Source: a virus (Duplodnaviria > Heunggongvirae > Uroviricota > Caudoviricetes). Taken from it: a stretch of DNA of 12,766 nucleotides. The notes beneath the pieces are model-generated. The model searched no databases. It worked only from the letters and a program-made list of their open reading frames with translations, and was not told the DNA's origin. The position numbers and the translations under genes were made by a program. Of the stretch, positions 1 to 12,766 are shown in pieces. Position 1 is the first letter of the stretch; every line of letters starts with the position of its first letter. The stretch lies in the IMG/VR virus record IMGVR_UViG_3300007747_000033; one strand, written 5' to 3'.

Positions 1-36
1 ACGGACTTCAGGGGAAAAACGAGTATTTTTAGTCAT
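1..36 (-). CDS. IS3-family transposase OrfA, first 12 codons only (runs off the window)
   Basis: rc of 1-36 = ATG ACT AAA AAT ACT CGT TTT TCC CCT GAA GTC CGT = MTKNTRFSPEVR; preceded on that strand by AGAGGTAAACAGG (SD-like). Confidence 0.6.
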   Translation of the reverse strand, partial: MTKNTRFSPEVR

Positions 37-90
37 CCTGTTTACCTCTTTCTCAGGAAGTTTAGTCTCCAGGATTCCCGGGGCGGTTCA
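1..90 (-). mobile_element. Terminal 90 bp of an IS3-family insertion sequence (left end with start of orfA); the element body lies beyond the left window edge
   Basis: Positions 2-90 are the exact reverse complement of 12678-12766 (checked base by base). The arm ends in TGAACCGCCCC (TG terminus typical of IS3 family) and carries an outward-reading ATG (rc of 34-36) opening MTKNTRFSPEVR, which I recognise as an IS3-family OrfA N-terminus. Exact IS name (IS629/IS1203-like?) not verifiable here. Confidence 0.75.
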
Positions 91-273
91 GTGTTTAATT
101 TCAGCAGAATTGCGGACTATTACGCTCACGCCCCCTCTGAAATTCAGTGTTTTTTCGAGGAGTCGGCGCTGGTGATCATTGATTATCAGCAGGCTATTGA
201 AAATGGATTTGTCCGGATGACGCAGCGCATGGTGGAGATCATGCATGGTGGTGAGGAGGAGGAATATGCGTGA
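91..273 (+). pseudogene. Possible 3' remnant of a gene truncated by the IS insertion; unknown product with acidic C-terminus (GGEEEEYA)
   Basis: The reading frame is open from position 1 through the IS end to the stop at 271-273; the first start-like codon (GTG 91) is the first codon after the IS boundary. No recognisable motif. Confidence 0.2.
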
Positions 274-1198
274 TGATTTTTGCGCCTTTATTCTGACTCA
301 CGGGCGACCGGACAAAGTTCTGACTTACCGGACGTTGCGTCGTGCTGGCTATACCGGGAAAATTTTTATCGTTGTTGATGATGAAGATAAGACACGGCAT
401 CAGTACATGGCTGAATTTGGGGAACAGGTGCTGGTGTTTTCCAAAGCCGATATCGCCAGTCGTTTTGACGAAGCCGATAATTTCTGTGACCGCCGCTCAA
501 TTTTTTACGCCCGTAATGCCTGTTTCGACCTGGCAAAACTGGTCGGGTGTAAATACTTCATTCAGCTCGATGATGATTATCACGAGTTCCAGTTTCGGGT
601 GGATCGCAACTATGACCAGGCCTATTTTCCGATAAGGAAACTGGATGCGATCCTTTCTGAAATGCTGGCGTACTACGAATCAATACCTGCTCTTTCCATC
701 GCTATGTCGCAGGGCGGGGATTTTCTTGGTGACAATGGCGGCCATGCTTCGTGGGTGAAACGCAAGGCAATGAACAGCTTTATCTGTTCGGTTGAACGAC
801 CGTTCTCATTCATGGGGCGCATTAACGAGGATGTGAATACGTACACGAATCTCGGTCGCTGTGGTGAATTGTTTATGACGATCGGTGCTGTCCAGTTAGG
901 GCAGAAACAGACGCAGAAAAACAGCGGCGGAATGACCGAGCTGTATCTGGATTCCGGAACCTACGTTAAAAGTTTTTACTCCGTCATGTATGCGCCGTCG
1001 TGCGTAAAAATCTCACTGATGGGTGCCAGCCATAAACGCATTCACCATCAGGTCACCTGGAACAACGCTGCAGTAAAAATCCTTCACGAAAAATACAGGA
1101 AGAAGACACCCTGCATATCAATGGGGGTGACAAATGATTCCGTATTCGAAAGTCGAGTCTCTGGCAGCGTGCCGGATGACTGCACAACAAATCGCTGA
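266..1198 (+). CDS. Hypothetical phage protein, putative GT-A-fold nucleotide-sugar transferase (DxD-type)
   Basis: ORF 245..1198 in the track; preferred start ATG 266 just downstream of the GAGGAGGAGG run (253-262) (ATG 245 is an alternative). Linear motif order typical of GT-A glycosyltransferases: AFILTHGRP strand, FIVVDDED about 25 residues later, then hydrophobic strand plus DxD (YFIQLDDDY) about 95 residues in. Motif-pattern call only. Confidence 0.5.
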   Translation: MRDDFCAFILTHGRPDKVLTYRTLRRAGYTGKIFIVVDDEDKTRHQYMAEFGEQVLVFSKADIASRFDEADNFCDRRSIFYARNACFDLAKLVGCKYFIQLDDDYHEFQFRVDRNYDQAYFPIRKLDAILSEMLAYYESIPALSIAMSQGGDFLGDNGGHASWVKRKAMNSFICSVERPFSFMGRINEDVNTYTNLGRCGELFMTIGAVQLGQKQTQKNSGGMTELYLDSGTYVKSFYSVMYAPSCVKISLMGASHKRIHHQVTWNNAAVKILHEKYRKKTPCISMGVTNDSVFESRVSGSVPDDCTTNR

Positions 1199-1385
1199 CG
1201 TTCTGGATGTTGATCTGAACCGACTGAAAGAAAATCGGGAAGCAATGACAGATTTTTATGCGGCCATCCGTAAGGGCAGAGCGAAAGGTGAAGCCGAGTT
1301 ACGAGCGGCATTGTTTAAGCTTGCCAGAAAAGGGGATGCCTTTGCTCTGCGCGAACTACTCAGGGTGGATAAAAATCAGGACTAA
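1134..1385 (+). CDS. Small HTH-like protein, possibly a DNA-packaging or small-terminase-associated domain
   Basis: ORF in track; ATG 1134 preceded by GGGGGTGA (ATG 1176 is an alternative). Overlaps the upstream gene by 65 nt in another frame. Contains TAQQIADVLDVD and GRAKGEAELRAALFKLARKGD, which I associate (from memory, unverified) with phage small-terminase N-terminal domains. Confidence 0.45.
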   Translation: MIPYSKVESLAACRMTAQQIADVLDVDLNRLKENREAMTDFYAAIRKGRAKGEAELRAALFKLARKGDAFALRELLRVDKNQD

Positions 1386-1388
1386 CTG

Positions 1389-2483
1389 ATGAGCAGACCG
1401 GACTGGGGGGCGTTGCAGCAGGAGTATATTGCTGAATACACCCGCTCCGGTATATCTCCGGTGGCATGGTGTGAAGCAAGGGGACTGAATTACGCAACAG
1501 CCCGTCGTTACATCAAAAAAACTCCGAAAAATGCGCAGACAGAAATGTGCAAAACTGCGCAAAAAAGTGCGCAGAAAAAATCTGCGCAGACTGCACAAAA
1601 GCGGAACGAAAAATCTCAGGAAAAAAAGCCAGTATTCGATGCGGGCCTGAATGAGGGCGACGCGGAGGAATTTTCGTTCTGTCCCGATGAATTCGGCATT
1701 TCTGACCAGCAGGCTAAGTTTGCGATGCTTGTTGCTCAGGGTAAAAAGCCGACAGAGGCGTACCGACTAGCCGGTTATGAGGGGCAAGGTGCGACAGCTA
1801 ATAGCAACGCCAGTCGTATGCTTAGAAATGCCAGGGTTTTTCGCGCTATCAGCTACTTCCGCAATCAGTACCAGAAACGCTATACCGCAGACCTGGATTT
1901 ACTAGTGAGTCAGTTGATGGCCATTGTCCTGGCCGACCCCAATCAGCTTGCACAATTTCGCCGTGTTAACTGCCGTTATTGCTGGGGCGAGAATCATCTC
2001 TACCAGTGGCGCGATATAGCAGAATTCGACAAGGCAGCGGCGCAGGCTTCCAGAGATGGCAAACCCGAACCGGAATATGGAGGCCTCGGCTTTGTTGATA
2101 ACGCCATACCCAATCCGGACTGCCCGAAGTGCTGCGGTGAGGGAACGGGACAGCTTTATATGGCTGATACCACTCTGCTTGATGGGGATGCGCGGCAATT
2201 ATATGCAGGGGCAAAATTCGGAAAATTCGGCGTTGAGATCCTGCTGGAGGATAAGGCTGCCGCCCGGCGTGAATTGTTGCGTTTGCTTTCTGCTGGCGGG
2301 GCTTTATGTGCAGATAAGCGGCTACAGGAACTGGAAATTGAACGGCGCAGAATGGAAAACCAGAAGCTGCGCAAAGAGATCGAAACGGTGGAAGATAATG
2401 AACATCCCCAGCCTGTGGCGATCAATATTAATGTGGTTGATGCCAGAGTAAGGAGTGATGAAGATGATCTCTCCGACGCTTAA
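1389..2483 (+). CDS. Terminase small subunit (Terminase_2-like core) with N-terminal extension, low-complexity linker and Cys-rich insert
   Basis: ATG 1389 after AGGA (1378-1381). Core region ISDQQAKFAMLVAQGKKPTEAYRLAGYEGQGATANSNASRMLRNARVFRAI fits the small-terminase HTH consensus (L..KQ..F..EY....NAT.AA..AGYS...A.....LL..P.V...I). Lies immediately upstream of the large terminase. Also has CRYC...CPKCC and a C-terminal coiled-coil-like region. Confidence 0.7.
   Translation: MSRPDWGALQQEYIAEYTRSGISPVAWCEARGLNYATARRYIKKTPKNAQTEMCKTAQKSAQKKSAQTAQKRNEKSQEKKPVFDAGLNEGDAEEFSFCPDEFGISDQQAKFAMLVAQGKKPTEAYRLAGYEGQGATANSNASRMLRNARVFRAISYFRNQYQKRYTADLDLLVSQLMAIVLADPNQLAQFRRVNCRYCWGENHLYQWRDIAEFDKAAAQASRDGKPEPEYGGLGFVDNAIPNPDCPKCCGEGTGQLYMADTTLLDGDARQLYAGAKFGKFGVEILLEDKAAARRELLRLLSAGGALCADKRLQELEIERRRMENQKLRKEIETVEDNEHPQPVAININVVDARVRSDEDDLSDA
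1532..1597. repeat. Cluster of six TG(C/T)(G/A)CA hexamers (four exact TGCGCA) at 9-15 bp spacing inside the small-terminase gene
   Basis: TGCGCA at 1532, 1556, 1568, 1583; TGTGCA at 1546; TGCACA at 1592; separated by A-tracts. Coincides with the (S/T)AQK peptide repeats of the encoded linker. Confidence 0.6.
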
Positions 2484-3765
2484 TGTGCCTCAGGCGCGAT
2501 TTCTTTCAATGCCCCATAAATTTAAAGCCTATATTGCTGGTTTTGGCTCGGGCAAAACATGGGTTGGGTGTGGCGGCATATGCAAGGGGATTTGGGAGCA
2601 TCCAGGTATAAATCAGGGATATTTTGCGCCAACGTATCCCCAAATTCGCGATATTTTTTACCCTACAGTGGAAGAAGTTGCTGCTGACTGGGGATTGAAC
2701 GTAAAAATTAATGAGGGAAATAAAGAGGTTCACTTTTATTACGGACGCCAGTATCGGGGAACCACTATCTGCAGATCGATGGAGAAGCCACAAACGATCG
2801 TCGGTTTCAAAATTGGTAATGCGTTGGTGGATGAACTGGACATTTTGCCGAAGGAAAAAGCCAGAACGGCGTGGCGCAAGATAATTGCACGTATGCGTTA
2901 TAAGATTGATGGACTTCGCAACGGTATTGACGTTACAACCACGCCGGAAGGATTCAAATTTGTCTACGAGCAGTTTGTTAAAGCCGTGCGTGAAAAAACA
3001 GAGCTGGCCTCACTGTATGGTCTGGTGCAGGCATCTACTTTCGATAATGAAAAGAACCTGCCAGCAGATTACATTCCTTCGCTTCTTGAATCATACCCTC
3101 CAGAGCTGATTAAAGCCTATCTTCGAGGACAGTTTACTAACCTGACAAGTGGTACTGTTTACCATCAGTTTGACCGGAAACTGAATAATTGCGAAGAAGT
3201 GGAGCAGCCAGGGGAGCCGATTTATATTGGGATGGATTTTAACGTTGGAAAGATGGCGGGAATCGTCCATGTGCTGCGTTTGGGGCTTCCATGTGCGGTA
3301 ACTGAAATCATCAATGCCTACGATACGCCGGATATGATCCGCATCATTAAAGAACGCTTCTGGCTGTATGATGGGAATGATTACCGGAAAGTGAGGGAAA
3401 TTTATATTTATCCAGATGCTTCCGGGGATTCCAGAAAATCAAGTAACGCAAGTACGACGGATATAGCCCAGCTTAAGCAGGCTGGTTTTAACGTTGTGGT
3501 GAACAGCTCGAACCCGCCAGTAAAAGATCGCGTTAACTCAATGAATGCAATGTTCTGCAATGCCAATGGTGAGCGTCGCTATAAAGTTAATGTGAAGCGT
3601 TGCCCGTTATATGCCGAATCTCTGGAGCAACAGGTCTGGGATGAGAAGGGGGAGCCTGATAAAAAATCTGGCAATGATCACCCGAATGATGCCGGAGGTT
3701 ATTTCATCGTTAAGCAATTCCCTATTGTCAAACCGACCGGAAGAGTCACATCACTTCGGATTTAA
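2464..3765 (+). CDS. Terminase large subunit
   Basis: ORF 2455..3765; preferred start ATG 2464, 8 nt after AGGAG (2451-2455); GTG 2455 and ATG 2458 are alternatives. Walker A-like AGFGSGKT near the N-terminus, and C-terminal acidic nuclease-type motifs (IGMDFN, YPDASG, HPNDAGGYF). Overlaps the terS stop. Confidence 0.85.
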   Translation: MISPTLNVPQARFLSMPHKFKAYIAGFGSGKTWVGCGGICKGIWEHPGINQGYFAPTYPQIRDIFYPTVEEVAADWGLNVKINEGNKEVHFYYGRQYRGTTICRSMEKPQTIVGFKIGNALVDELDILPKEKARTAWRKIIARMRYKIDGLRNGIDVTTTPEGFKFVYEQFVKAVREKTELASLYGLVQASTFDNEKNLPADYIPSLLESYPPELIKAYLRGQFTNLTSGTVYHQFDRKLNNCEEVEQPGEPIYIGMDFNVGKMAGIVHVLRLGLPCAVTEIINAYDTPDMIRIIKERFWLYDGNDYRKVREIYIYPDASGDSRKSSNASTTDIAQLKQAGFNVVVNSSNPPVKDRVNSMNAMFCNANGERRYKVNVKRCPLYAESLEQQVWDEKGEPDKKSGNDHPNDAGGYFIVKQFPIVKPTGRVTSLRI

Positions 3766-3767
3766 TT

Positions 3768-5174
3768 ATGGCTGATATATCAACACCCAACCTCGACTAT
3801 AACGATATGCTGGAGGCGTGGGATATTAACGACGCACTGATGGGCGGTACGCTTGAAATGCGCAGGCAGGGGGAAAATTATCTCCCAAAATGGCCTAACG
3901 AAGATGAAGACGCTTATAAAAAACGCCTGTCTGTGGCTACGCTACTTCCTGTGTATGAAGAAAGCATCAAGCAAAATATTGGGCGCATATTTGCAGAGCC
4001 GACAGTATTGAGTGAGGAAACGCCGGCAAAAATCAGGGAATATGCAGAAAATATCGACATGGAGGGGAGCCGACTGGATGTGTGGGCGCAGCAATTTTTC
4101 AGCCTCGCATTTCAGTATGGTGTGGCACATGCGCTGGTGGACTATCCACGAACGGATATGAAAGAGATTCGGACAAAAGCCGATGAAAACGCGGCCGGTG
4201 GTCGTCCGTACGTTACGATGCTGAATCCACGCCAGGTTATTGGATGGAAATCGAAAGTTGAAAAAGGGAAAGTTGTTCTCACTGATTTGCGTATAAAAGA
4301 GGTCATCATTATTGATGGTGATGATTTCGGGCAGAAGAAGGTGGAGCAGATCCGCCATATTATGCCCCGTCGAGTTGAAATTTATCGACGTAGCGAAGGC
4401 ACTAATGGCGAATCTGTCTGGACGCTTCATGAGTCATGGAATACCAGCCGTGATGATATTCCTCTGGTAACACTGTACACGAAGAAAACAGGATTTATGC
4501 GTGGTACACCGCCATTGCTTAATCTTGGCTTGCTGAATATCAAGCACTGGCAAAGCCAGAGCGAGCAGGACAATATTCTTCATGTTGCCCGCGTTCCATT
4601 GCTGGTGGCCTACGGGCTGGACAGGAATGAAGAACTGACGGTTGGTGCATCCACCGCTACGATTTTTGAGGACAGAACAAAAAATGGCCTCGAATATGTT
4701 GAACATAGTGGCGCAGCGATAGAATCTGGCGAAACATCACTTGAGAAGCTGGAAAATCAGATGCGTCATGCCGGCGCTAAACTTCTGCGTGCTGAAAATA
4801 CATCCACCAAATCTGTTGATCAGACTAATGAAGAGCGAATGCAGGAAAACTCGCCGCTTTATACAATGGCGAACTCCCTCGAAGATGCCCTCGATAATAT
4901 TCTCCAGATAATGGCGGAATGGATCGGAGAGAGTTGCGGTGGCAATGTGGATGTGCGCACTGAACTGGATGTATCTGCCCAGGTGTTTGACTCATCCTCC
5001 GCGCTGGCTGTTCAGTCATTGCGTCAGGGCGGTGATATACGTCAGATTGATGCGGTTCGGGTGTTGCAGGCGTTGAAATTTATCGATCAGGATTCCCGTC
5101 CAGAGGAAGTGATCGATGAATTAAAAAATCAGAGTGTAATGCTGATGGAAATCAATGATGCAAACCGTGAATGA
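3768..5174 (+). CDS. Portal protein
   Basis: 468-aa ORF starting 2 nt after the terL stop (translational coupling). Position between large terminase and Mu-F-like minor head protein, and size, are typical of a portal. Assigned by synteny. Confidence 0.65.
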   Translation: MADISTPNLDYNDMLEAWDINDALMGGTLEMRRQGENYLPKWPNEDEDAYKKRLSVATLLPVYEESIKQNIGRIFAEPTVLSEETPAKIREYAENIDMEGSRLDVWAQQFFSLAFQYGVAHALVDYPRTDMKEIRTKADENAAGGRPYVTMLNPRQVIGWKSKVEKGKVVLTDLRIKEVIIIDGDDFGQKKVEQIRHIMPRRVEIYRRSEGTNGESVWTLHESWNTSRDDIPLVTLYTKKTGFMRGTPPLLNLGLLNIKHWQSQSEQDNILHVARVPLLVAYGLDRNEELTVGASTATIFEDRTKNGLEYVEHSGAAIESGETSLEKLENQMRHAGAKLLRAENTSTKSVDQTNEERMQENSPLYTMANSLEDALDNILQIMAEWIGESCGGNVDVRTELDVSAQVFDSSSALAVQSLRQGGDIRQIDAVRVLQALKFIDQDSRPEEVIDELKNQSVMLMEINDANRE

Positions 5175-6270
5175 ACGGCTGCGTGATGAATCAATTGCTC
5201 ATGCAGTCTGGATATCCCGCTATAGCACTGGCGTGGCTGCCAGAATGGTGAAAATACTGAATGACAGCGATGCGGAACTTACTGCTCGCCTGCTGATAGC
5301 ACTGGACAGCCTCGATCCAGGTAGTTTTACCGTTAAGCGCCTGGAGTCACTTCTGGCGAGCGTCAGAGAGGTTAACCGCACTGCTATTAACAGCATGTTT
5401 ACCAGTCTCTCCGGAGAGCTGAACGAGCTGGCAATTTATGAGGCTGGTTATCAGTTAAGTCTGTTTGATTCTATGCTACCTGATTTTGTTGCTGATGTTC
5501 ACCCTCTGGTTGGTATCTCTCCTGATGCACTTTATGCCGCTGCAATGGCGCGACCATTCCAGGGACGACTGCTCAGTGAGTGGGCCTCAGATCTTGAAGC
5601 GGATCGGCTCAGACGCATAACAAATACAGTGCGTCAGGGTTTTTTGCTGGGGGATACCAATGAGCAGATCGCAAGAAAAATTCGGGGACATGTCAGTAAG
5701 GGATTTCAGGATGGTGCATTGCAGATGAGCCGGGCTAATGCGGCCAGCATTGCAAAAACAGCGGTTGGACATCTTGCTGCTACTGCCCGTGAGAGTTTTG
5801 CCAGCGCGAATAATGATTTGATTAAGGGTAAGCAATGGTTATCAACGCTTGATAATCGTACTACGCCACAATGTCGAATCAGGGATCGCCTCAAATATAC
5901 GCTGAATAATAAACCTGTAGGTCACAGCGTGCCTTATTTGCAGGGGCCGGGAAAAATTCATTTCTGCTGCCGCTCAACGGAAACGTTCATTCTGAAATCA
6001 GCGAAGGAACTGGGTATTGATGTTCGCGATATTTCCCCGGCTGAGCGGGCCAGCATGGATGGCGTGGTGGCCGGAGATACAACCTACAGGGAATGGTTTT
6101 TGCGTCAGCCTTACACCAGACAAAAACAGATTGTGGGGGAAACCCGAGCAAAGCTGATTCGGGATGGTGGTATGTCGCCAGATGAATTTTACACCGATAA
6201 AGGCGAATGGCTGACGCTGAAGCAGCTCCGTGAGCGTGATGCACAGGTATTCAGAAAAGCAGGGATTTAA
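5155..6270 (+). CDS. Minor head / head morphogenesis protein (Phage Mu F / SPP1 gp7-like)
   Basis: 371-aa ORF overlapping the portal stop by 20 nt. Contains WLSTLDNRTTPQCR, resembling the conserved D.R..P.C signature of the Mu-F/gp7 family. Canonical position after the portal. Confidence 0.65.
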   Translation: MMQTVNERLRDESIAHAVWISRYSTGVAARMVKILNDSDAELTARLLIALDSLDPGSFTVKRLESLLASVREVNRTAINSMFTSLSGELNELAIYEAGYQLSLFDSMLPDFVADVHPLVGISPDALYAAAMARPFQGRLLSEWASDLEADRLRRITNTVRQGFLLGDTNEQIARKIRGHVSKGFQDGALQMSRANAASIAKTAVGHLAATARESFASANNDLIKGKQWLSTLDNRTTPQCRIRDRLKYTLNNKPVGHSVPYLQGPGKIHFCCRSTETFILKSAKELGIDVRDISPAERASMDGVVAGDTTYREWFLRQPYTRQKQIVGETRAKLIRDGGMSPDEFYTDKGEWLTLKQLRERDAQVFRKAGI

Positions 6271-6290
6271 ATAAATCATTTATTACAACA

Positions 6291-6314
6291 GGCTACCTTC
6301 GGGTGGCCTTTTTT
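6291..6314 (+). terminator. Rho-independent terminator after the minor head protein gene
   Basis: GGCTACC (6291-6297), TTCG loop, GGTGGCC (6302-6308): 7-bp stem with one G-U pair, followed by TTTTTT (6309-6314). Lies 21 nt after the stop at 6270. Confidence 0.7.
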
Positions 6315-6374
6315 ATTGCTGCGATCCGGATGGTGAGCAGCGTAACTGTCGGAAGACTTAAACCAGGTACTAAT

Positions 6375-7139
6375 ATGAAACTGAAAACGGTCGAGATTAA
6401 CGGAAAACAATACGCAGAAATTGATACTGCTGGCCTGCCAGTTTATGTGCACGACGATGGTAAAGAAATTGGCTTCGATGCACCGCTGGCGACAAAAAAA
6501 ATTACAGAGCTTAATGGCGAGGCAAAAAATCATCGCCTGGCTAAAGAAGCTGCAGAGGAAAAACTGGCTAAGTTTGCCGCTATCGAAGACCCGAAGAAGG
6601 CGATCGAGGCACTGGAAATGCTGTCAAAAATCGACCAGAAAAAGCTGCTCGATGCGGGACAGGTTGACCAGGTTAAGGCAGAAATTACGAAAAATTTTCA
6701 GCAGCAATTAGATGAAGAAAAGCAACGCTCTCAGATGCTGGAGAAGCAGCTTTACGATTCTATGATTGGCGGTAGTTTTGCGGGTTCAAAATATATTGCC
6801 GATAAAATTGCGATCCCGGCAGATTTATTACAAGCCCGCTTCGGGCAGGCATTCAAAGTGGAAGAAGGGAGGATCGTTGCTTATGACGCTTCCGGCAACA
6901 AAATTTATTCCCGCGCGAAGCCTGGCGAACTGGCGCAGTTTGATGAGGCGCTGGAGTTCCTTGTCGAAAATTACCCTCAGAAAGACTACATCCTGAAAGC
7001 CAGTGGCAACAATGGCGGCGGCTCCCGTCCGACACAGCATGATATTGGTCAGAAAACGATGAAACGCTCTGCTTTTGATGCACTGGATGTTGCAGGTAAG
7101 CAAAACGCATTGAAAGACGGTATCACAATCGTTGATTAA
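6375..7139 (+). CDS. Scaffolding protein (putative)
   Basis: The ORF track starts at GTG 6303, but that lies inside the terminator; first plausible start is ATG 6375. Product is highly charged and helical (EAAEEKLAKFAAIEDPKKAIEALEMLSKIDQKKLL...) and sits immediately upstream of the major capsid gene. Confidence 0.55.
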   Translation: MKLKTVEINGKQYAEIDTAGLPVYVHDDGKEIGFDAPLATKKITELNGEAKNHRLAKEAAEEKLAKFAAIEDPKKAIEALEMLSKIDQKKLLDAGQVDQVKAEITKNFQQQLDEEKQRSQMLEKQLYDSMIGGSFAGSKYIADKIAIPADLLQARFGQAFKVEEGRIVAYDASGNKIYSRAKPGELAQFDEALEFLVENYPQKDYILKASGNNGGGSRPTQHDIGQKTMKRSAFDALDVAGKQNALKDGITIVD

Positions 7140-7237
7140 CACATTTGTCAGCTTCCGGATGGGAGCTGGTGTCAGGGCTGGATAGCTCATTACTCCATCT
7201 ATTCACAATTACGCAAATTTTTAAGGAATATTTAATT

Positions 7238-8377
7238 ATGGCTGGAAATACCCTGACCGGGTTGATCCCGACTATTTATACCGCCCTGGATGTTGTATCC
7301 CGTGAGCAGGTAGGTTTTATCCCTGCGGTAGCAAAAAACGCAAAAGCTGACGCCGCAGCAAAAGATCAGACGGTAACCGCGCCAGTTGCGCCTGAGGCGA
7401 AAACCGAAGATATCGTACCGGGGCCGTCAGCTCCGAATACCGGTGATCAAAATATTGGCACTGTTGATGTAAAAATTACTAAATCCAAAATGGCACCGGT
7501 TAAATGGAATGGTGAAGAACAACTGGCTCTTGGCCCTTCAGGGACTTACAACACCATTCTGGCTGATCAGTTCAAGCAGGCTTTTCGCGCCCTTGCAAAC
7601 GAGGTTGAGGCTGATCTTGGTGCGTTGTATTTCGGTGCTTCCCGCGCCGTGGGAACCGCAGGGACAACGCCGTTTGGTGTTAAAGATGATCTTTCTGATG
7701 CTGCTCTGGCTCGTCAGGTTCTGGAGGATAACGGCGCACCGACAACCGATCTGCAGATGGTGCTTGGCTCCACTGCCATTGCTAATTTGCGCGGAAAACA
7801 GTCTGTATTGTTTAAAGTGAATGAATCCGGCACTGAACAGCTACTGCGTGAGGGCGTGTTGGGGCGTCTGGAGGGATTCAATATTCACAGTTCGGCAGGT
7901 GTGAAACGAGCGCCAAAGGTTGCTGCAACTGGTTATCTCGTGAATGGAGAGAAAAAAGAAGGCGATGTTCTTATTTCCATTGATACTGGTTCGGGGTGTA
8001 TTTCTGCAGGTCAGATTGTTACGTTCGCTGGTGATCCGAATCAGTATGTTGTGGCAGCAGCGACCAGCAATCTGATTACTCTTGCAGCGCCCGGACTGCG
8101 TCAGGATCTGGCCGATGATACTGCCATCACAGTTGTTGGGGCCTTTACTGCAAATATGGCGTTTGATCGCAACGCGTTTCTGCTGGCATCCCGTACTCCG
8201 GCAATGCCGGAAGGTGGCGATAATGCTGATGATGTAATGAATGTTACGGACCCGATTTCAGGGATTACGTTCCAGATTGCACTGTATCGTCAGTATCGCC
8301 AGGTGCGCTATGAAGTTGGACTGGCATGGGGTGTTTCATCAGTGAAGCCGGCACATGGTTGTCTGATTCTTGGTTAA
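7238..8377 (+). CDS. Major capsid (coat) protein
   Basis: The ORF track opens at 7145; preferred start is ATG 7238, 10 nt after AAGGA (7223-7227). N-terminus MAGNTLTGLIPTIYTALDVVSREQVGFIP resembles coat proteins of the P22-coat-like family (from memory). Size ~380 aa; followed by a terminator. Confidence 0.75.
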   Translation: MAGNTLTGLIPTIYTALDVVSREQVGFIPAVAKNAKADAAAKDQTVTAPVAPEAKTEDIVPGPSAPNTGDQNIGTVDVKITKSKMAPVKWNGEEQLALGPSGTYNTILADQFKQAFRALANEVEADLGALYFGASRAVGTAGTTPFGVKDDLSDAALARQVLEDNGAPTTDLQMVLGSTAIANLRGKQSVLFKVNESGTEQLLREGVLGRLEGFNIHSSAGVKRAPKVAATGYLVNGEKKEGDVLISIDTGSGCISAGQIVTFAGDPNQYVVAAATSNLITLAAPGLRQDLADDTAITVVGAFTANMAFDRNAFLLASRTPAMPEGGDNADDVMNVTDPISGITFQIALYRQYRQVRYEVGLAWGVSSVKPAHGCLILG

Positions 8378-8387
8378 ACATTCAAAC

Positions 8388-8408
8388 GGGGCTTCGGCCC
8401 CATTTTTA
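8388..8408 (+). terminator. Rho-independent terminator after the major capsid gene
   Basis: GGGGC (8388-8392), TTCG loop, GCCCC (8397-8401), then ATTTTTA. Starts 11 nt after the capsid stop. Confidence 0.65.
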
Positions 8409-8419
8409 ATGGGGGGCAT

Positions 8420-8596
8420 ATGGCCGGATTAACTAAAGAGCAAAGAGCACAGCGTGAAGCCGCACAAAAAACGCAAATTGAGTTAGTGGTTATGGTGACC
8501 GATTATCAGATGTTTCCCGGCGCACCAACTATCGCTAATGTTCATCCTGATGAAGTTGACAACTGGAAGGCTATGGGCTGGAAAACTCAGGAGTAA
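8420..8596 (+). CDS. Small hypothetical protein (58 aa), not in the supplied ORF track
   Basis: ATG 8420 just after GGGGGG (8411-8416); translation MAGLTKEQRAQREAAQKTQIELVVMVTDYQMFPGAPTIANVHPDEVDNWKAMGWKTQE; stop TAA 8594-8596. Fills the capsid-connector gap exactly, with the next gene's SD (AGGAG 8588-8592) inside its 3' end. Confidence 0.45.
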   Translation: MAGLTKEQRAQREAAQKTQIELVVMVTDYQMFPGAPTIANVHPDEVDNWKAMGWKTQE

Positions 8597-8599
8597 CAC

Positions 8600-8995
8600 A
8601 TGATCACTTACGTGACCTGTGATGACGTTGATAATGCGTTTGGGAACGCCTGGACGAGTGAGAACGCTAAAAATAAAGCTGTTTTAATGGCTAATGCCTG
8701 GCTTAATGGCTTCAACCTGAAAATTAACCCATCCCGTATTCCGGAAGAGGTAAAACTTGCGGGAGCATATGCAGCCAGAATTGCCTCATTCGGTAAGTTG
8801 TTTCAGCAGAAAAATGATTCTGGCGTTGTTATCAGTAAAGCCGTGTCGGCTGACGGGGTCAGTGTATCGAAATCATTTTCTGAGTTGCCAGCAAACAGCA
8901 CTGCATTGCTTGAACCCGATTTACAGCTTGCGATAGCACTGCTGAAACCGTACGGACTTAGTCGCTCACAAGTCAGGGTTGTGAGGGGGGGATAA
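8600..8995 (+). CDS. Putative head-tail connector / adaptor protein (gp6-like)
   Basis: ATG 8600 after AGGAG. 131 aa, first gene after the capsid module. N-terminus (ITYVTCDDVDNAF...AVLMANAWL) resembles connector-protein N-termini. Assigned mainly by synteny. Confidence 0.45.
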   Translation: MITYVTCDDVDNAFGNAWTSENAKNKAVLMANAWLNGFNLKINPSRIPEEVKLAGAYAARIASFGKLFQQKNDSGVVISKAVSADGVSVSKSFSELPANSTALLEPDLQLAIALLKPYGLSRSQVRVVRGG

Positions 8996-9378
8996 TGGGG
9001 CTTCGTGAAGAGATTCAGTCAGAGGTTGCCGCTGCTTTTGATGAGGATTTAGCGGACGCCGTGAGTGATTTTTCTGGTTCTTACGTTACGCACCGGCACT
9101 GGGATCCTGTGACGGAAACTGGCGGCGAATCCACCGCAATCTATACCGGGCGAGGCGTGTTGACACGTTATAAGCTGGGCAGAATTGATGGGATTAATAT
9201 TTTGCATGGTGACCTTAAATTAACCGCTCTGGTATGCGAGGTTACGGATAAACCAGCTGTCGACCATATTATTGAGATTTATGATCCTGTATCAAGGCAG
9301 TTACAACGATACGAGGTAATTACAGCAAGTGTAGATCCTTCCGCATCAGTTTACTCTATCCAGTTAAGGAGAGCGTAA
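8995..9378 (+). CDS. Hypothetical phage structural protein (head completion / head-tail joining by position)
   Basis: ATG 8995 overlaps the upstream TAA by 1 nt (TAATG) and follows GAGGGGGGG. 127 aa; no recognisable motif. Confidence 0.5.
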   Translation: MGLREEIQSEVAAAFDEDLADAVSDFSGSYVTHRHWDPVTETGGESTAIYTGRGVLTRYKLGRIDGINILHGDLKLTALVCEVTDKPAVDHIIEIYDPVSRQLQRYEVITASVDPSASVYSIQLRRA

Positions 9379-9759
9379 ATGGCAAAGGCATGGGATATAG
9401 AACCGTCAATATTTGCCGGGATGATTGAGGAAGATGTAGGGCTGAAGATTCGCTACATCGCTATTCAGATTCTTACTGCTATTGATATTGCTGCTCCGGT
9501 TGATACCGGACGTTTCAGAAATAACAACCTGGTGTCGTTACAGCATCCCGATTTTGGTATATCTGATAACGTGGATCCGAACGGTACGATTGCTGTTCAG
9601 CGTGGGATCGGGGTTATTTCGAAAGCTGCAAATTACGGGGTTATTTATATCCAGAATAACCTTCCTTATGCAGAGGCTCTTGAAAACGGTCATTCACAAC
9701 AAGCGCCAACTGGCGTGTATGCCAACGCTTTTCATGGTGTTTTACAGGCTTACAAATGA
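9379..9759 (+). CDS. Head-tail joining / tail component protein, HK97 gp10-like
   Basis: ATG 9379 immediately after the upstream TAA, with AAGGAG at 9367-9372. Contains VDTGRFRNN, resembling the DTGxLRxS signature I associate with the HK97 gp10 family. Confidence 0.55.
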   Translation: MAKAWDIEPSIFAGMIEEDVGLKIRYIAIQILTAIDIAAPVDTGRFRNNNLVSLQHPDFGISDNVDPNGTIAVQRGIGVISKAANYGVIYIQNNLPYAEALENGHSQQAPTGVYANAFHGVLQAYK

Positions 9760-10148
9760 AGTTTACTGAAATCAGAAATACGGTTATTTCCAGAATGACG
9801 GCACAGACGATTATTGATGGAAAAGACGTATTGTATCCGAACGGGCCAACGTTCGATCCTTCCGGTAAGTTAATCTGGGCGCGGTTAAGTAATATTCCCG
9901 GGCAAGCTGGAGTTAATGAAATTGGCGCGGGGCCGGTTGTTTATCGCACGGGGATAATCATTATTCAGTTATTTGTCCCCGCAGGTTCTGGTTCAAAACT
10001 CATTACTGAGACAGCCGATAAATTGCGGGAACTGTTTGAGTTTCAGGATGACGATCGTCTCAGTTACCAGGCTGTTTCCTCAATAGCCGTCGGCGAAAAG
10101 AATGGCTGGTTCCAGCTTAATCTTCAAATTCCATATCGCGCGCTCTAG
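9756..10148 (+). CDS. Putative tail completion / tail terminator protein
   Basis: ATGA start-stop overlap with the upstream gene (9756-9759). 130 aa, immediately upstream of the major tail gene. Assigned by synteny. Confidence 0.5.
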   Translation: MKFTEIRNTVISRMTAQTIIDGKDVLYPNGPTFDPSGKLIWARLSNIPGQAGVNEIGAGPVVYRTGIIIIQLFVPAGSGSKLITETADKLRELFEFQDDDRLSYQAVSSIAVGEKNGWFQLNLQIPYRAL

Positions 10149-10174
10149 CGCAATTAATGACATAGGAGGCTCCT

Positions 10175-11137
10175 GTGAGTTCAGGTGCAAAGGTTATCTC
10201 GGCATTTATCCGGGAGACAGTTGCAGGCACTACGCCAGCAAGTGGTGACTGGAGTTTATTAAAACGCACAAGCTGGGGAGTAAAACCCACCCAGAATAAA
10301 GGCGAAAATAATGAGATTGGTGGCTCCCGGATGGCTCAGGGGGCGACGCCTGGCACTGTGGATGTCGGCGGTGATGTTGGTACCAAATTTCGCTGGGGTC
10401 AACATGATGATTTTCTTGCATCCTGTTTCGGCGCGGAATGGTCAGGCGATTCTCTGACAATGGGGAATGAGCGAATAACATTTTCTCTGGCGACCTATGC
10501 GTCCGATGTCGGAATTGCCTCTGTCGTCAGAGGAGCGCAGGTTGGCTCATGGAAAATGCAGATCCCTAACGACGGCGATATTACAGCGACCGTAACCTTT
10601 GCCGGGCTGGGCTGGGAATCAAAGGCCGATGATACGAATTTTATCAAAGGCGAACCTGTGGATAGTGCAGGAAAGTTACGCTATTCGTTTAAGGCGGTTT
10701 CAGCAGTAAGCCTGAATGGTGTTGCCGGAGGTAACGGTTTTTGTATCGACAGTTTTGATATTCAGTTCGATAACAAACTCCAGACACAGCGTTGTATCGG
10801 GACCGGCTCGCCTTATGCAGGAGCAAATATTCCGACTACTTTTACACCGTCCGGTACGGTGACGCTTTCATGGTCTAAAGCCGCGTGGGAAATCTGGAGT
10901 AAAACACTGACTGGAGAAACAGTTCCGTTCAGCTTCACGCTTTCGAATGGAGAGGGGGCATACACTTTCAGTTTCCCGAAGGTTCAGGTGTCAGGTGAAT
11001 GGCCTGATGGGGGTAATACTGACATTATCCAGGTTCAATTGAGCATTACCGCAGCAGATGAAGCACCTACGATAACCAGAAAAAAATGCTCCCCGACTGC
11101 CGTGATCGCAAAAGCCAGTGCTGATGCGATTAGTTGA
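10175..11137 (+). CDS. Major tail (tube) protein
   Basis: GTG 10175, 5 nt after AGGAGG (10164-10169). 320 aa, Gly/Thr/Ser-rich beta-type composition. Directly upstream of the chaperone/frameshift pair and tape-measure gene. No sheath gene present, so siphovirus-type. Confidence 0.6.
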   Translation: MSSGAKVISAFIRETVAGTTPASGDWSLLKRTSWGVKPTQNKGENNEIGGSRMAQGATPGTVDVGGDVGTKFRWGQHDDFLASCFGAEWSGDSLTMGNERITFSLATYASDVGIASVVRGAQVGSWKMQIPNDGDITATVTFAGLGWESKADDTNFIKGEPVDSAGKLRYSFKAVSAVSLNGVAGGNGFCIDSFDIQFDNKLQTQRCIGTGSPYAGANIPTTFTPSGTVTLSWSKAAWEIWSKTLTGETVPFSFTLSNGEGAYTFSFPKVQVSGEWPDGGNTDIIQVQLSITAADEAPTITRKKCSPTAVIAKASADAIS

Positions 11138-11149
11138 TTTTCCGTTATT

Positions 11150-11176
11150 CCCCCTGTGGTACTGCACTACAGGGGG
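11150..11176 (+). promoter_or_regulatory. Stable hairpin between major tail and chaperone genes, no U-tract
   Basis: CCCCCTGTGGT (11150-11160), ACTGC loop, ACTACAGGGGG (11166-11176): 11-bp stem with one G-U pair. Followed by ACGCATTGA, not a T-run, so not a canonical intrinsic terminator. Confidence 0.4.
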
Positions 11177-11185
11177 ACGCATTGA

Positions 11186-11647
11186 ATGAGGTTATGGATG
11201 TTTATTCTTAATCAGAAAATTATCATCGGTGGAGAACGCTGGTTTACGCCAATGAAGGACTTAAAACCTATAGACGGGTTAAAACTGTTGGTGGCAAGCA
11301 GCGATAACGATCAGTATCGCTCCCGTAATGCATTAATCCGTCGTCACATTGAGAAAATGGATGCCAGTTTGCACGTCGGAACGAAGGAGTTTGATATTTC
11401 AAAGGTTTCCGAGGTAGATTCTGTTGATGATTTACTCATTGATAATGCTGCTCGTTATCTGCTGAAAGACTGGAAAGGGGTTGGTGAACTGGTTAATGGT
11501 GCTGAGGTTGCACTGGAATATACGCCAGAACGAGGGATCGCGCTGCTTAAGCAGAATCCAGAGTTGTACTGGCAGATCCTTGCAGAAGCAGCCAGCATCG
11601 CCCAGGGTAAAGAGCAGCAGAAGCAGGATACGATAAAAAAGCCATAG
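11186..11647 (+). CDS. Tail assembly chaperone (lambda G-like)
   Basis: 153-aa ORF between major tail and tape-measure genes; ends 4 nt after an A AAA AAG slippery heptamer; -1 frame stays open for a further 104 codons. Confidence 0.6.
   Translation: MRLWMFILNQKIIIGGERWFTPMKDLKPIDGLKLLVASSDNDQYRSRNALIRRHIEKMDASLHVGTKEFDISKVSEVDSVDDLLIDNAARYLLKDWKGVGELVNGAEVALEYTPERGIALLKQNPELYWQILAEAASIAQGKEQQKQDTIKKP
11635..11641 (+). promoter_or_regulatory. Programmed -1 ribosomal frameshift slippery site A_AAA_AAG
   Basis: Zero-frame codons ATA AAA AAG (11633-11641) give the classic heptamer at 11635-11641, followed by CCA TAG. The -1 frame is open from 11611 to the stop at 11953-11955. Confidence 0.6.
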
Positions 11648-11955
11648 CCGCCCAGCGGTGGTTATCGGAGTTCGGGGGAGAAAGGGGGGAAAAGGCAAGA
11701 TGGAAGCGAGAAAAACTCAGGTTGCCACCGATACCGGAACCAGAAATAGACCCGGTGCTTAAGGAATTGTTGTACGCCTATTCGGTAATATCCCGTGCCC
11801 GACGTTATGCTGGAATGACCGGGGTGCCTTTGCCTTTATCTCTGACAGAGATAAATGAATATTTAGCCACTCATCCGGTATTGATTGAGCGCGATGAGTT
11901 TGAAGCAGTGATCTTTGCACTGGATGACCAGTATTTTCAGGAGCAGTGTGTGTAG
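11635..11955 (+). CDS. -1 frame extension of the tail assembly chaperone (lambda GT-like fusion, ~256 aa with the upstream ORF)
   Basis: Track ORF 11722..11955 (TTG start) is in the -1 frame relative to 11186..11647, and that frame has no stop back to 11611. Conserved G/GT arrangement upstream of tape-measure genes. Confidence 0.5.
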   Translation, partial: KKAIAAQRWLSEFGGERGEKARWKREKLRLPPIPEPEIDPVLKELLYAYSVISRARRYAGMTGVPLPLSLTEINEYLATHPVLIERDEFEAVIFALDDQYFQEQCV

Positions 11956-12078
11956 TTGTTAATTACGTACACTCTGTTACAGAGATGTGATGGTGTCTTT
12001 AATTAAATCGATGATGCTCCTGGAGAAAAGCATTGCGTGGCCTCGTAATCGCTATATCTACTATTATGTCGCCTGAAA

Positions 12079-12098
12079 CCCACTTCGGTGGGCTTTTT
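12079..12098 (+). terminator. Candidate rho-independent terminator upstream of the tape-measure gene
   Basis: CCCAC (12079-12083), TTCG loop, GTGGG (12088-12092), then CTTTTTGTTG. Short 5-bp stem, so probably weak or partial. Confidence 0.5.
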
Positions 12099-12118
12099 GT
12101 TGTCTGGAGTTTTAATAA

Positions 12119-12706
12119 ATGGCAGAGCAAACCTCGCGTCTCGCAATAATTATTGATAGCACTGGAGCAAAAAATAATGCTGACAATCTGACCTCCTCAT
12201 TAGTCAAAATGACGCAGGCCGGGGAAACTGCTGCAAATAGCGCAGGGAAAGTGACTAAGGCAACAGAAGATGAGAAGAACGCGCTCGCAAAATTAAAAGC
12301 AGCTATTGATCCAGTTGGTGCCGCAATTGATACTGTCGGTCGACGCTATTCTGAATTAAAGAAATTTTTCGATAAAGGGATTATTGATAAAGAAGAATAT
12401 GAATTTCTTGTCCGTAAACTTAATGAAACCACAGAGGAATTGAGCGGGGTTGCGCAAGCGCAGAGAGAAGCCGAGAAGGCCGGAAAACTTGCTGCCGCCC
12501 AGCAGGAAGCGCAGACTCAGGCCTTTCAAAGAATGCTGGACAAGATCGACCCTCTGGCTGCGGCGCTAAGAAATCTTGAACAACAGCAGGATGAACTTAA
12601 TGCTGCGTTTGCATCCGGGAAAATAAATGGTTCTCAGTTTGAGAATTATAGCCGAAAAATACAGGAAACACGGCGAGTGAACCGCCCCGGGAATCCTGGA
12701 GACTAA
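12119..12706 (+). CDS. Tail tape-measure protein, N-terminal fragment truncated by IS insertion (native sequence ends at 12677; last 9-10 codons and stop are IS-derived)
   Basis: ATG 12119 after GGAG. Product is helical, Ala/Glu/Lys/Gln-rich and coiled-coil-like, as in tape-measure N-termini, and sits directly downstream of the chaperone/frameshift pair. The ORF runs into the IS end at 12678 and stops inside it (…[11 protein letters not shown]). Confidence 0.55.
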
Positions 12707-12766
12707 ACTTCCTGAGAAAGAGGTAAACAGGATGACTAAAAATACTCGTTTTTCCCCTGAAGTCCG
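12678..12766 (+). mobile_element. Terminal 89 bp of an IS3-family insertion sequence (left end with start of orfA); the element continues beyond the right window edge
   Basis: Begins TGAACCGCCCCGGG; exact inverted copy of 2-90; contains AGAGGTAAACAGG followed by ATG at 12732. Confidence 0.75.
12732..12766 (+). CDS. IS3-family transposase OrfA, first 11 codons only (runs off the window)
   Basis: ATG ACT AAA AAT ACT CGT TTT TCC CCT GAA GTC = MTKNTRFSPEV. Confidence 0.6.
   Translation, partial: MTKNTRFSPEV

What the first reader, a model, noticed from the sequence alone, without database searches (positions are those of the whole stretch)
12119..12766. Tape-measure gene interrupted by IS insertion after codon 186, leaving a tail-defective module
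The tape-measure-like ORF runs straight into the IS terminus at 12678, and its last residues (VNRPGNPGD) and stop are encoded by IS sequence. A 186-aa tape-measure fragment cannot specify a tail, so the prophage is probably cryptic or defective unless the rest of the gene sits beyond the other IS copy after an inversion. The IS OrfA SD and start lie about 50 nt downstream, so read-through transcription from the phage late operon could drive transposase expression.
Basis: partly seen in the sequence, partly recalled or inferred. Interest (0 to 1): 0.5.

Follow-up and report, generated by a model that had tools for sequence, protein, structure and literature searches.

The report
IS629 insertion splitting a prophage tape-measure gene
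A common E. coli mobile element (IS629) has inserted into the tail tape-measure gene of a Rac-type prophage, with a second copy in a nearby ParB-like gene; this is an ordinary, well-known kind of prophage decay.

Summary
Window 91-12677 is 99.99-100% identical to intact Rac-site prophages of E. coli, where the gene starting at 12119 encodes a 1077-aa lambda-H-type tape-measure protein. That identity stops at 12677. From 12678 the sequence is the left end of IS629 (IS3 family). The ORF is therefore 186 native codons, plus 9 IS-coded residues (VNRPGNPGD) and an IS-coded stop.

The window also begins (1-90) with the same IS629 end, inverted, inserted in a ParB/Srx gene. For that copy I found the outer junction in the same sequencing sample, with a 3-bp GTG target duplication, so it is a simple insertion.

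The window is almost certainly a whole short-read contig that stops in the IS repeat at both ends. The 186-aa fragment is therefore an assembly boundary, not evidence that the rest of the gene is missing. I could not recover the 3' part for this strain. One other assembly has a contig that starts at exactly this nucleotide and carries codons 187-1077.

An IS-free sibling is 100% identical, so both insertions are recent. Neither junction occurs in 5,426 complete E. coli genomes.

The tail defect is a sound inference. Read-through activation of the transposase is untested speculation. This is an ordinary finding of low interest.

The parts
12119..12676 (+). Codons 1-186 of the phage tail tape-measure gene (5' fragment; the intact gene has 1077 codons)
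   Evidence: 100% nt identity to the start of annotated TMP genes. L001 14220-17453 encodes 1077 aa with Pfam TMP_2, TMP_4 and Tape_meas_lam_C. The fragment hits PHROG 3827 and PHROG 24 'tail length tape measure protein' at 2e-49 and 7.5e-24. Pfam on the fragment alone is below threshold (TMP_3, 20.5 bits against a 41-bit cut-off).
12677..12706 (+). Fusion tail: codon 187 (G from the phage, TG from the IS) through D195 and the TAA stop; residues VNRPGNPGD
   Evidence: Translation; junction position.
12675..12677 (.). Presumed 3-bp target site GAG of the right IS copy (inferred; the second copy of the duplication lies outside the window)
   Evidence: IS629 copies examined here carry 3-bp duplications: CAT, GTC, GTG. 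PMC3271280 reports 3-4 bp.
12678..12766 (+). Left end (first 89 nt) of IS629: terminal inverted repeat about 12678-12702, SD AAAGAGG 12717-12723, OrfA ATG 12732 and its first 11 codons (MTKNTRFSPEV)
   Evidence: 100% identical to L004 2501-2589. The full 1310-bp L004 element is 100% identical to annotated IS629. Its OrfA has HTH_Tnp_1 and its OrfB has rve. IRL and IRR match at 23 of 25 positions.
1..90 (-). Second IS629 copy, left end (first 90 nt), inverted; its transposase genes point away from the phage segment
   Evidence: Arms 2-90 and 12678-12766 are 100% complementary.
91..93 (.). GTG target-site duplication of the left IS copy (inner copy)
   Evidence: Window...GGTTCA|GTGTTTAAT. Outer junction in the same sample...CACACGGTG|TGAACCGCCCCGGGTTTCC (L006).
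91..273 (+). Last 60 codons of a ParB/Srx-family gene cut by the left IS after codon 203
   Evidence: Intact gene L001 1583-2374, 263 aa, Pfam ParB_N. The predicted truncated 204-aa product exists in the protein collection and in sample SRR7716745.
91..12677 (+). 12,587-bp packaging, head and proximal-tail module of a Rac-type prophage, collinear with intact relatives. It holds the ParB 3' end, a TAGT glycosyltransferase, terS, terL, portal, Mu-F-like protein, DUF6651, P22-type coat, four small head/tail-joining ORFs including a tail terminator-like protein, tail tube, YdaY chaperone and the TMP 5' end.
   Evidence: 100.000% identical to L019 and to GenBank phage records ON470609 and others.

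Best explanation
Two copies of the 1310-bp insertion sequence IS629 (IS3 family) inserted independently, in opposite orientations, into a Rac-type lambdoid prophage of E. coli. One copy lies in the ParB/Srx-like gene after codon 203. The other lies in the tail tape-measure gene after codon 186. The second insertion splits the 1077-codon gene. The upstream part now ends in 9 IS-coded residues and a stop, so no full-length tape-measure protein can be made. By established knowledge of lambda gpH-type proteins, this prophage cannot build its own tail unless the IS is removed or the function is supplied in trans. The window is a short-read contig that stops inside the multicopy IS at both ends. Its abrupt end is an assembly boundary. 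The 3' part of the gene most likely lies directly beyond the IS. Shown: both inner junctions, the IS identity, and the outer junction and GTG duplication of the left copy. Inferred: the full length of both IS copies, the GAG duplication and position of the TMP 3' half, and the tail-defective phenotype.
For: The junction lies at 12677/12678 and the rest of the window is identical to intact prophages. The intact orthologue is a 1077-aa TMP placed between tail chaperone genes and gpM/L/K/I/J-like genes. The IS end is 100% identical to IS629, and the reference element has HTH_Tnp_1, rve and an annotated programmed frameshift. An identical inverted IS end occupies window 1-90. The predicted ParB(1-203)+V product with an IS-coded TGA stop was found, and its contig in the same sample SRR7716745 shows GTG|IRR. 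An independent Logan assembly reproduces window 63-12706. The IS-free sibling L019 is 100.000% identical over 12,587 nt. NCTC9699 shows what a simple insertion of this IS looks like in the same gene: GTC duplication, with the rest of the TMP following at once. A contig in GCA_031950105.1 starts exactly at the equivalent of window 12677 and carries TMP codons 187-1077 plus downstream tail genes. Literature: 62% of IS629 copies in O157 genomes lie in prophages, with 3-4 bp duplications (PMC3271280).
Against: The outer junction of the right IS copy was not recovered for this strain. Exact-pattern scans of GTDB representative genomes and JGI metagenomes found nothing, but the same collections also lack the left junction, so they simply do not hold this genome. 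Predicted junction proteins were absent from the protein collection. The L023 contig starts 2 nt later than a clean GAG duplication would predict, and it comes from a different assembly whose relation to this strain is unknown. Only 89-90 nt of each IS copy lie in the window, so their completeness is inferred. No phenotype was measured.
Confidence: 0.9

Rival explanations
1. An IS-associated deletion or rearrangement: the IS629 copy at 12678 is no longer followed by the TMP 3' half. The distal tail genes were deleted or moved, so the prophage is an irreversibly truncated remnant.
For: The right outer junction was not found for this sample. IS629 is associated with genomic deletions (PMC9943667). 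Rac prophages do decay this way; the K-12 ynaA gene is a TMP remnant.
Against: The other IS copy in the same sample is a clean simple insertion with a duplication. The insertions are very recent, given the 100% identical IS-free sibling. A contig starting at this very site and carrying the whole 3' half exists in another assembly. The negative searches say little, because the source genome is not in the searchable DNA collections.
Confidence: 0.08
2. The 12.6-kb block between the two inverted IS629 copies has been inverted by homologous recombination. The TMP 5' fragment would then face the trkG/ParB side and be physically separated from its 3' half by 12.6 kb plus two IS copies. This is compatible with the main explanation as a later step.
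For: Two 100% identical IS ends in inverted orientation bracket the block. This geometry allows inversion. All four IS-flank junctions are unchanged by such an event, so the short contigs fit either state.
Against: There is no positive evidence. Each outcome gives the same contigs. The gene is broken in either orientation, so the functional conclusion does not change.
Confidence: 0.12
3. The junction is an assembly chimera: IS reads were wrongly joined to an intact TMP gene.
For: The window ends in a multicopy repeat at both ends, which is where assemblers make errors.
Against: Two independent assemblies give the identical junction (window and Logan contig). The left insertion has both junctions with a matching 3-bp duplication. 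The join falls exactly at the first base of the IS terminal repeat.
Confidence: 0.02
4. The 12119 ORF is a complete small protein unrelated to tape-measure proteins.
For: Pfam on the 195-aa product alone gives only sub-threshold hits.
Against: It is 100% identical at nucleotide level to the first 559 nt of 1077-codon TMP genes in hundreds of genomes. PHROG tape-measure families match at 2e-49. Its stop codon lies inside the IS.
Confidence: 0.01

Closest known systems
IS629 insertions in lambdoid prophages of enterohaemorrhagic E. coli (O157 Sakai Sp prophages; Stx phages)
   Same: The same element: the window's 89-nt IS end is 100% identical to the end of a 1310-bp element (L004) that is itself 100% identical to copies annotated IS629 in Stx phage records. 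It has the same habit of landing in prophage genes with 3-4 bp duplications (PMC3271280). The consequence is also the same, a genetically defective prophage (PMC2669165).
   Different: This particular site (TMP codon 186 of a Rac-type prophage) and the companion ParB site are in none of 5,426 complete E. coli genomes. The host strain is unknown.
E. coli NCTC9699 Rac-type prophage with TMP::IS629-like element (NZ_LR134228.1)
   Same: The same prophage family and gene, and an IS of the same type in the same orientation. It is a simple insertion with a 3-bp duplication, and PGAP annotates the two gene halves as pseudogene fragments.
   Different: It is an independent event 78 bp downstream with duplication GTC. 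The IS copy differs at 34 of 1310 positions from the variant matching the window. The prophage backbone is 99.4% identical to the window, not 100%.
Rac prophage of E. coli K-12 (ynaA/tmpR tape-measure remnant, ydaY, trkG, ynaK)
   Same: An orthologous locus. The region spanning the insertion site matches K-12 ynaA at 98.5%. The intact relatives sit next to trkG with ydaY upstream of the TMP. Both are decayed prophages.
   Different: According to its RefSeq annotation, read alongside my own knowledge of Rac, K-12 Rac appears to have lost most of this morphogenesis module. Here the whole module is present and identical to intact copies, and the only lesions seen are two recent IS insertions.
IEE-reversible IS insertions (lacZ::IS in STEC O121:H19)
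   Same: An IS3-family or IS629-type insertion inactivates a gene that can be restored by IEE-promoted excision (PMC9397093, PMC9943667).
   Different: It is not known whether this strain carries IEE. No reversion was observed.

Membership tests
IS629 (IS3 family insertion sequence) | Terminal inverted repeat starting 5'-TG, with the IS629 left-end sequence | tested here: met
   Window 12678-12766 and rc(1-90) are 100% identical to the left end of a 1310-bp element. That element is 100% identical to one annotated 'IS3 family IS629'. IRL and IRR match at 23 of 25 positions.
IS629 (IS3 family insertion sequence) | An element of about 1.3 kb with orfA (HTH), orfB (DDE/rve) and a programmed -1 frameshift | tested here: inconclusive
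   Only 89-90 nt of each copy lie in the window, and the first 11 OrfA codons are identical to the reference. The reference copy L004 meets the feature: 1310 bp, HTH_Tnp_1 plus rve, annotated programmed frameshift.
IS629 (IS3 family insertion sequence) | A 3-4 bp direct target-site duplication flanking each copy | tested here: met
   Left copy: GTG on both sides (window 91-93; L006 from the same sample). Right copy: only the inner side (GAG, 12675-12677) is visible, and the outer side was not recovered.
Lambda gpH-type phage tail tape-measure protein | Sequence membership (Pfam TMP_2 / Tape_meas_lam_C; PHROG tape-measure families) | tested here: met
   The intact orthologue has TMP_2 at 1.3e-80, Tape_meas_lam_C at 3.9e-26 and TMP_4 at 1.7e-24. 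The window fragment matches PHROG 3827 at 2e-49. The window is 100% identical to the first 559 nt of the intact gene.
Lambda gpH-type phage tail tape-measure protein | Gene lies between the tail-assembly chaperone genes and the distal tail genes (gpM/L/K/I/J-like) | tested here: met
   In the window, the tail tube (10175-11137), the YdaY chaperone (11186-11647, PHROG 313) and a weak Phage_TAC_18 ORF (11722-11955) lie upstream. gpM/L/K/I/J-like genes lie downstream in intact relatives.
Lambda gpH-type phage tail tape-measure protein | A full-length, uninterrupted reading frame that includes the C-terminal domains | tested here: not met
   The frame ends at 12706 after 186 native codons. All three Pfam domains of the intact protein lie after residue 266. 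This failure is the finding itself: the window holds a gene fragment, not a functional member.
Composite (compound) transposon | Two IS copies move the enclosed DNA as one unit: a duplication flanks the whole unit, and the unit is found out of its native context | tested here: not met
   The left IS copy has its own GTG duplication on both of its sides. The enclosed 12.6 kb is collinear and identical with intact prophages in their native position beside trkG.

The most novel reading that the evidence does not exclude
The two inverted IS629 copies could act as a reversible switch on the prophage's morphogenesis module. Either IEE-promoted excision would restore the tape-measure gene, or IS-IS recombination would flip the 12.6-kb block. 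Late-operon read-through into OrfA after induction could couple IS activity to prophage induction.
Probability: 0.03. Interest if true: 0.35.

Novelty: already known. Interest (0 to 1): 0.08.

Why it matters
It matters little beyond bookkeeping. It explains why the contig breaks where it does. It flags this prophage copy as unable to make its own tape-measure protein. It also gives two strain-specific IS629 junctions (ParB codon 203 and TMP codon 186) that could serve as lineage markers in IS-typing. More broadly, it is one more example of IS elements inactivating prophage morphogenesis genes. In this prophage family the same TMP gene has been hit independently by IS629 (twice), an IS5-like element and an IS10-like end in different strains.

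Tried and rejected
1. I searched for the source genome and the right outer junction with exact patterns in GTDB representative genomes, JGI metagenomes and IMG/VR. All five scans found nothing, including the left junction as a control. The genome is therefore simply not in those collections, and the negatives carry no weight.

2. I looked up predicted right-junction proteins by exact sequence: the IS-end-coded prefixes HSPGNPGRFR, SPGNPGRFR and KHSPGNPGRFR joined to TMP 187-1077, several internal starts, and the 186- and 187-aa N-terminal partials. Only the bare 891-aa remainder (P0032, a different assembly) and an M257-start product were found. The M257-start product (P0031) comes from three unrelated lesions: a frameshift, an unrelated metagenome join and an IS10-like end.

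3. I tried to reach the 15,065-nt JGI/IMG contig listed for the fusion protein through another window protein. That protein is too common (16,012 blocks), so the contig was not reached.

4. I looked for an RBS-sequestering hairpin in a read-through transcript across the junction. The fold is no better than shuffled sequence (z = -0.10). Nothing blocks the read-through idea and nothing supports it.

5. I rejected the composite-transposon reading (see the membership test).

6. I rejected the 'complete small protein' reading.

Full report
OBSERVATION. The ORF 12119-12706 (+, 195 aa) is real. A megablast of window 11900-12766 against 5,426 complete E. coli genomes returned many 100% matches. All of them stop at query base 778, which is window 12677, and all lie in genes annotated 'phage tail tape measure protein'. 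Direct blastn shows window 91-12677 equals E. coli 7/2 (L001) 2192-14778 with one mismatch in 12,587 nt, at window 7026. In L001 the sequence continues ...ACGGCGAG|AGCTTACCGG. In the window it continues ...ACGGCGAG|TGAACCGCCCCGGG. The count is 559 nt, or 186 whole codons plus one base. Codon 187 becomes GTG, and the frame then runs through NRPGNPGD to the TAA at 12704-12706.

WHAT THE TWO PARTS ARE.

(a) The gene. In L001 the gene is 3,234 nt and encodes 1077 aa, with Pfam TMP_2 (1.3e-80), TMP_4 and Tape_meas_lam_C. It lies between ydaY and a small ORF upstream and gpM/L/K/I/J-like genes downstream. The window fragment alone is below Pfam thresholds. It does hit PHROG tape-measure families at 2e-49 and 7.5e-24. 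The 200 nt spanning the insertion site is uninterrupted in 1,067 of 5,426 complete genomes, and it matches K-12 ynaA at 98.5%. With trkG next to the module in L001, this identifies a Rac-type prophage.

(b) The insert. Window 12678-12766 is 100% identical (E = 3e-38) to the end of an element found in 3,553 genomes, at up to at least 40 places each, which is the tool's counting limit. A full copy in O145 RM9872 (L004 2501-3810) is 1310 bp and is flanked by a CAT duplication. It carries an HTH_Tnp_1 OrfA and an rve OrfB with an annotated programmed frameshift. It is 100% identical to the element annotated 'IS3 family IS629' in Stx2a phage record LC567824. The OrfA ATG is 54 nt from the IS tip in the reference, which places it at window 12732. 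It is preceded by AAAGAGG at 12717-12723.

Window 1-90 is the same IS629 left end, inverted and 100% identical to the other end. It abuts phage DNA at position 91, inside a ParB/Srx-family gene after codon 203. The 12,587-bp packaging, head and proximal-tail module is therefore bracketed by two IS629 copies in opposite orientation, with both left ends facing inward.

An independent Logan assembly of run SRR7716745 holds a contig equal to window 63-12706. Both assemblies stop a few tens of bases inside the IS at both ends. That is the signature of a short-read contig bounded by a multicopy repeat. So the end of the window says nothing about what follows the IS.

TESTING THE SIMPLE-INSERTION MODEL. 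A simple insertion with a 3-bp duplication predicts, for the left copy, a ParB product of residues 1-203 plus V, followed by a TGA supplied by the IS tip. That exact 204-aa sequence is in the protein collection. Its contig in the same sample SRR7716745 reads ...CACACGGTG|TGAACCGCCCCGGGTTTCCTGGAGAG, which is the IS629 right end. Together with ...GGTTCA|GTGTTTAAT in the window, this shows a GTG duplication, so the left copy is a simple insertion.

For the right copy I could not recover the outer junction for this strain. The genome is absent from the searchable DNA collections; even the left junction is not found there. The predicted junction proteins were also absent. The bare remainder, residues 187-1077, does exist as a partial protein. 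It lies on a 4,597-nt contig of GCA_031950105.1 that begins exactly at the equivalent of window 12677 and continues into gpM/L/K/I-like genes. This fits the same insertion site but does not prove it, because the assembly's relation to this strain is unknown and the contig starts 2 nt later than a clean GAG duplication would give.

NCTC9699 shows the expected architecture for an independent IS629-like insertion 78 bp downstream in the same gene. It has a GTC duplication, and the rest of the TMP follows directly.

AGE AND FREQUENCY. L019 (GCA_006232555.1) is 100.000% identical to window 91-12677, with intact ParB (263 aa) and TMP (1077 aa). Four GenBank phage records are also 100% identical. Neither IS junction occurs in any of the 5,426 complete genomes. 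Both insertions are therefore recent and lineage-specific.

IS hits on this prophage family recur. There is an IS5-like element splitting the TMP into 638 and 460 aa (L013). There is a sequence I recognise from memory as an IS10 end, at about TMP codon 257 (L022). There is also an IS629 end in the portal gene of another sample (L020).

MECHANISM AND CONSEQUENCES. Shown: the reading frame is broken, and every recognisable TMP domain lies downstream of the break. Inferred from established knowledge of lambda gpH-type proteins: without a full-length tape-measure protein, tail assembly cannot start or be measured, so this prophage cannot make its own tails.

This does not make the prophage inert. 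Defective O157 prophages are still excised, packaged and transferred with the help of co-resident prophages (PMC2669165). IS629 excision is promoted by IEE, which has restored an IS-disrupted lacZ (PMC9943667, PMC9397093). Whether this strain has IEE or helper prophages is unknown.

An inversion between the two IS copies is possible. It would be invisible in short contigs and irrelevant to function.

READ-THROUGH IDEA. The geometry is as described: the TMP-frame stop is at 12706, the SD at 12717-12723 and the ATG at 12732, in a different frame. Folding 12640-12766 as RNA gives no structure better than shuffled sequence (z = -0.10), and the centroid structure leaves the SD unpaired. Nothing obviously blocks translation from a read-through transcript, and nothing supports it either.

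A terminator-like hairpin with a T-run sits at 12079-12092, just upstream of the TMP start. Late transcription happens only after induction. IS3-family transposase also needs the -1 frameshift annotated in the reference copies. I treat the idea as plausible and untested.

COMPARISON AND VERDICT. This is IS629 doing what it is known to do. In O157 genomes, 62% of its copies lie in prophages or prophage-like elements, with 3-4 bp duplications (PMC3271280). The nearest specific analogue is the NCTC9699 allele. The K-12 Rac ynaA remnant is a later stage of the same decay. The composite-transposon reading fails, because the left copy has its own duplication and the enclosed DNA is in its native prophage context. 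Novelty: already known. Interest: low. Its functional corollaries are reasonable inferences or speculation.

Noticed in passing
window 245-1198 (+), with the ParB/Srx gene fragment at 91-273: The ORF just downstream of the ParB/Srx gene matches Pfam TAGT, 'TET-associated glycosyltransferase' (1.2e-34). The pair sits directly upstream of the small terminase gene in all intact relatives. It may be a DNA-modification or packaging-associated module. The left IS629 copy cuts its ParB partner.
   Followed up: no
window 12079-12092 (+), in the 163-nt gap between 11955 and 12119: A terminator-like hairpin, CCCACTTCGGTGGG followed by CTTTTTGTTG, lies just upstream of the tape-measure start codon, inside the late tail operon. 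It is conserved in intact relatives, because the region is 100% identical.
   Followed up: no
L005, L007, L008, L009 (contig ends): Contigs from four other samples or assemblies end 0-1 nt after ParB codon 204, exactly at the GTG target site (GCA_032658265.1, SRR19064375, ERZ28563882, ERR12541547). This is what an assembly fork between IS-bearing and IS-free alleles, or clipping at an IS boundary, would produce. The ParB::IS629 allele may therefore occur beyond this one sample.
   Followed up: partly
L002 8856-10165; L013 about 17734-19007; L022 1-26; L020 1-30: There are independent IS hits in the same prophage family: an IS629-like element 78 bp downstream in the TMP (NCTC9699), an IS5-like element splitting the TMP into 638 and 460 aa, an IS10-like end at about TMP codon 257 (recognised from memory, not tested), and an IS629 end in the portal gene of a sample that also has a TMP frameshift.
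   Followed up: partly
window 11186-11647 and 11722-11955 (+): The two ORFs between the tail tube gene and the TMP are a YdaY/PHROG 313 tail assembly chaperone and a 77-aa ORF with a weak Phage_TAC_18 hit. They do not overlap, and they are separated from the TMP by 163 nt. This differs from the usual overlapping G/GT frameshift arrangement.
   Followed up: no
window 7026: This is the single base difference from E. coli 7/2 (C in the window, T in L001), inside the DUF6651 gene. L019 and four GenBank phage records are identical to the window over the whole 12,587-nt module, including this position.
   Followed up: partly
protein collection entries P0001 and P0016: The fusion protein and the truncated ParB are both listed from JGI/IMG as well as Logan, on contigs of up to 15,065 and 21,308 nt. 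These are longer than the window. I could not retrieve them. The 15,065-nt contig might extend further into, or through, the IS.
   Followed up: partly
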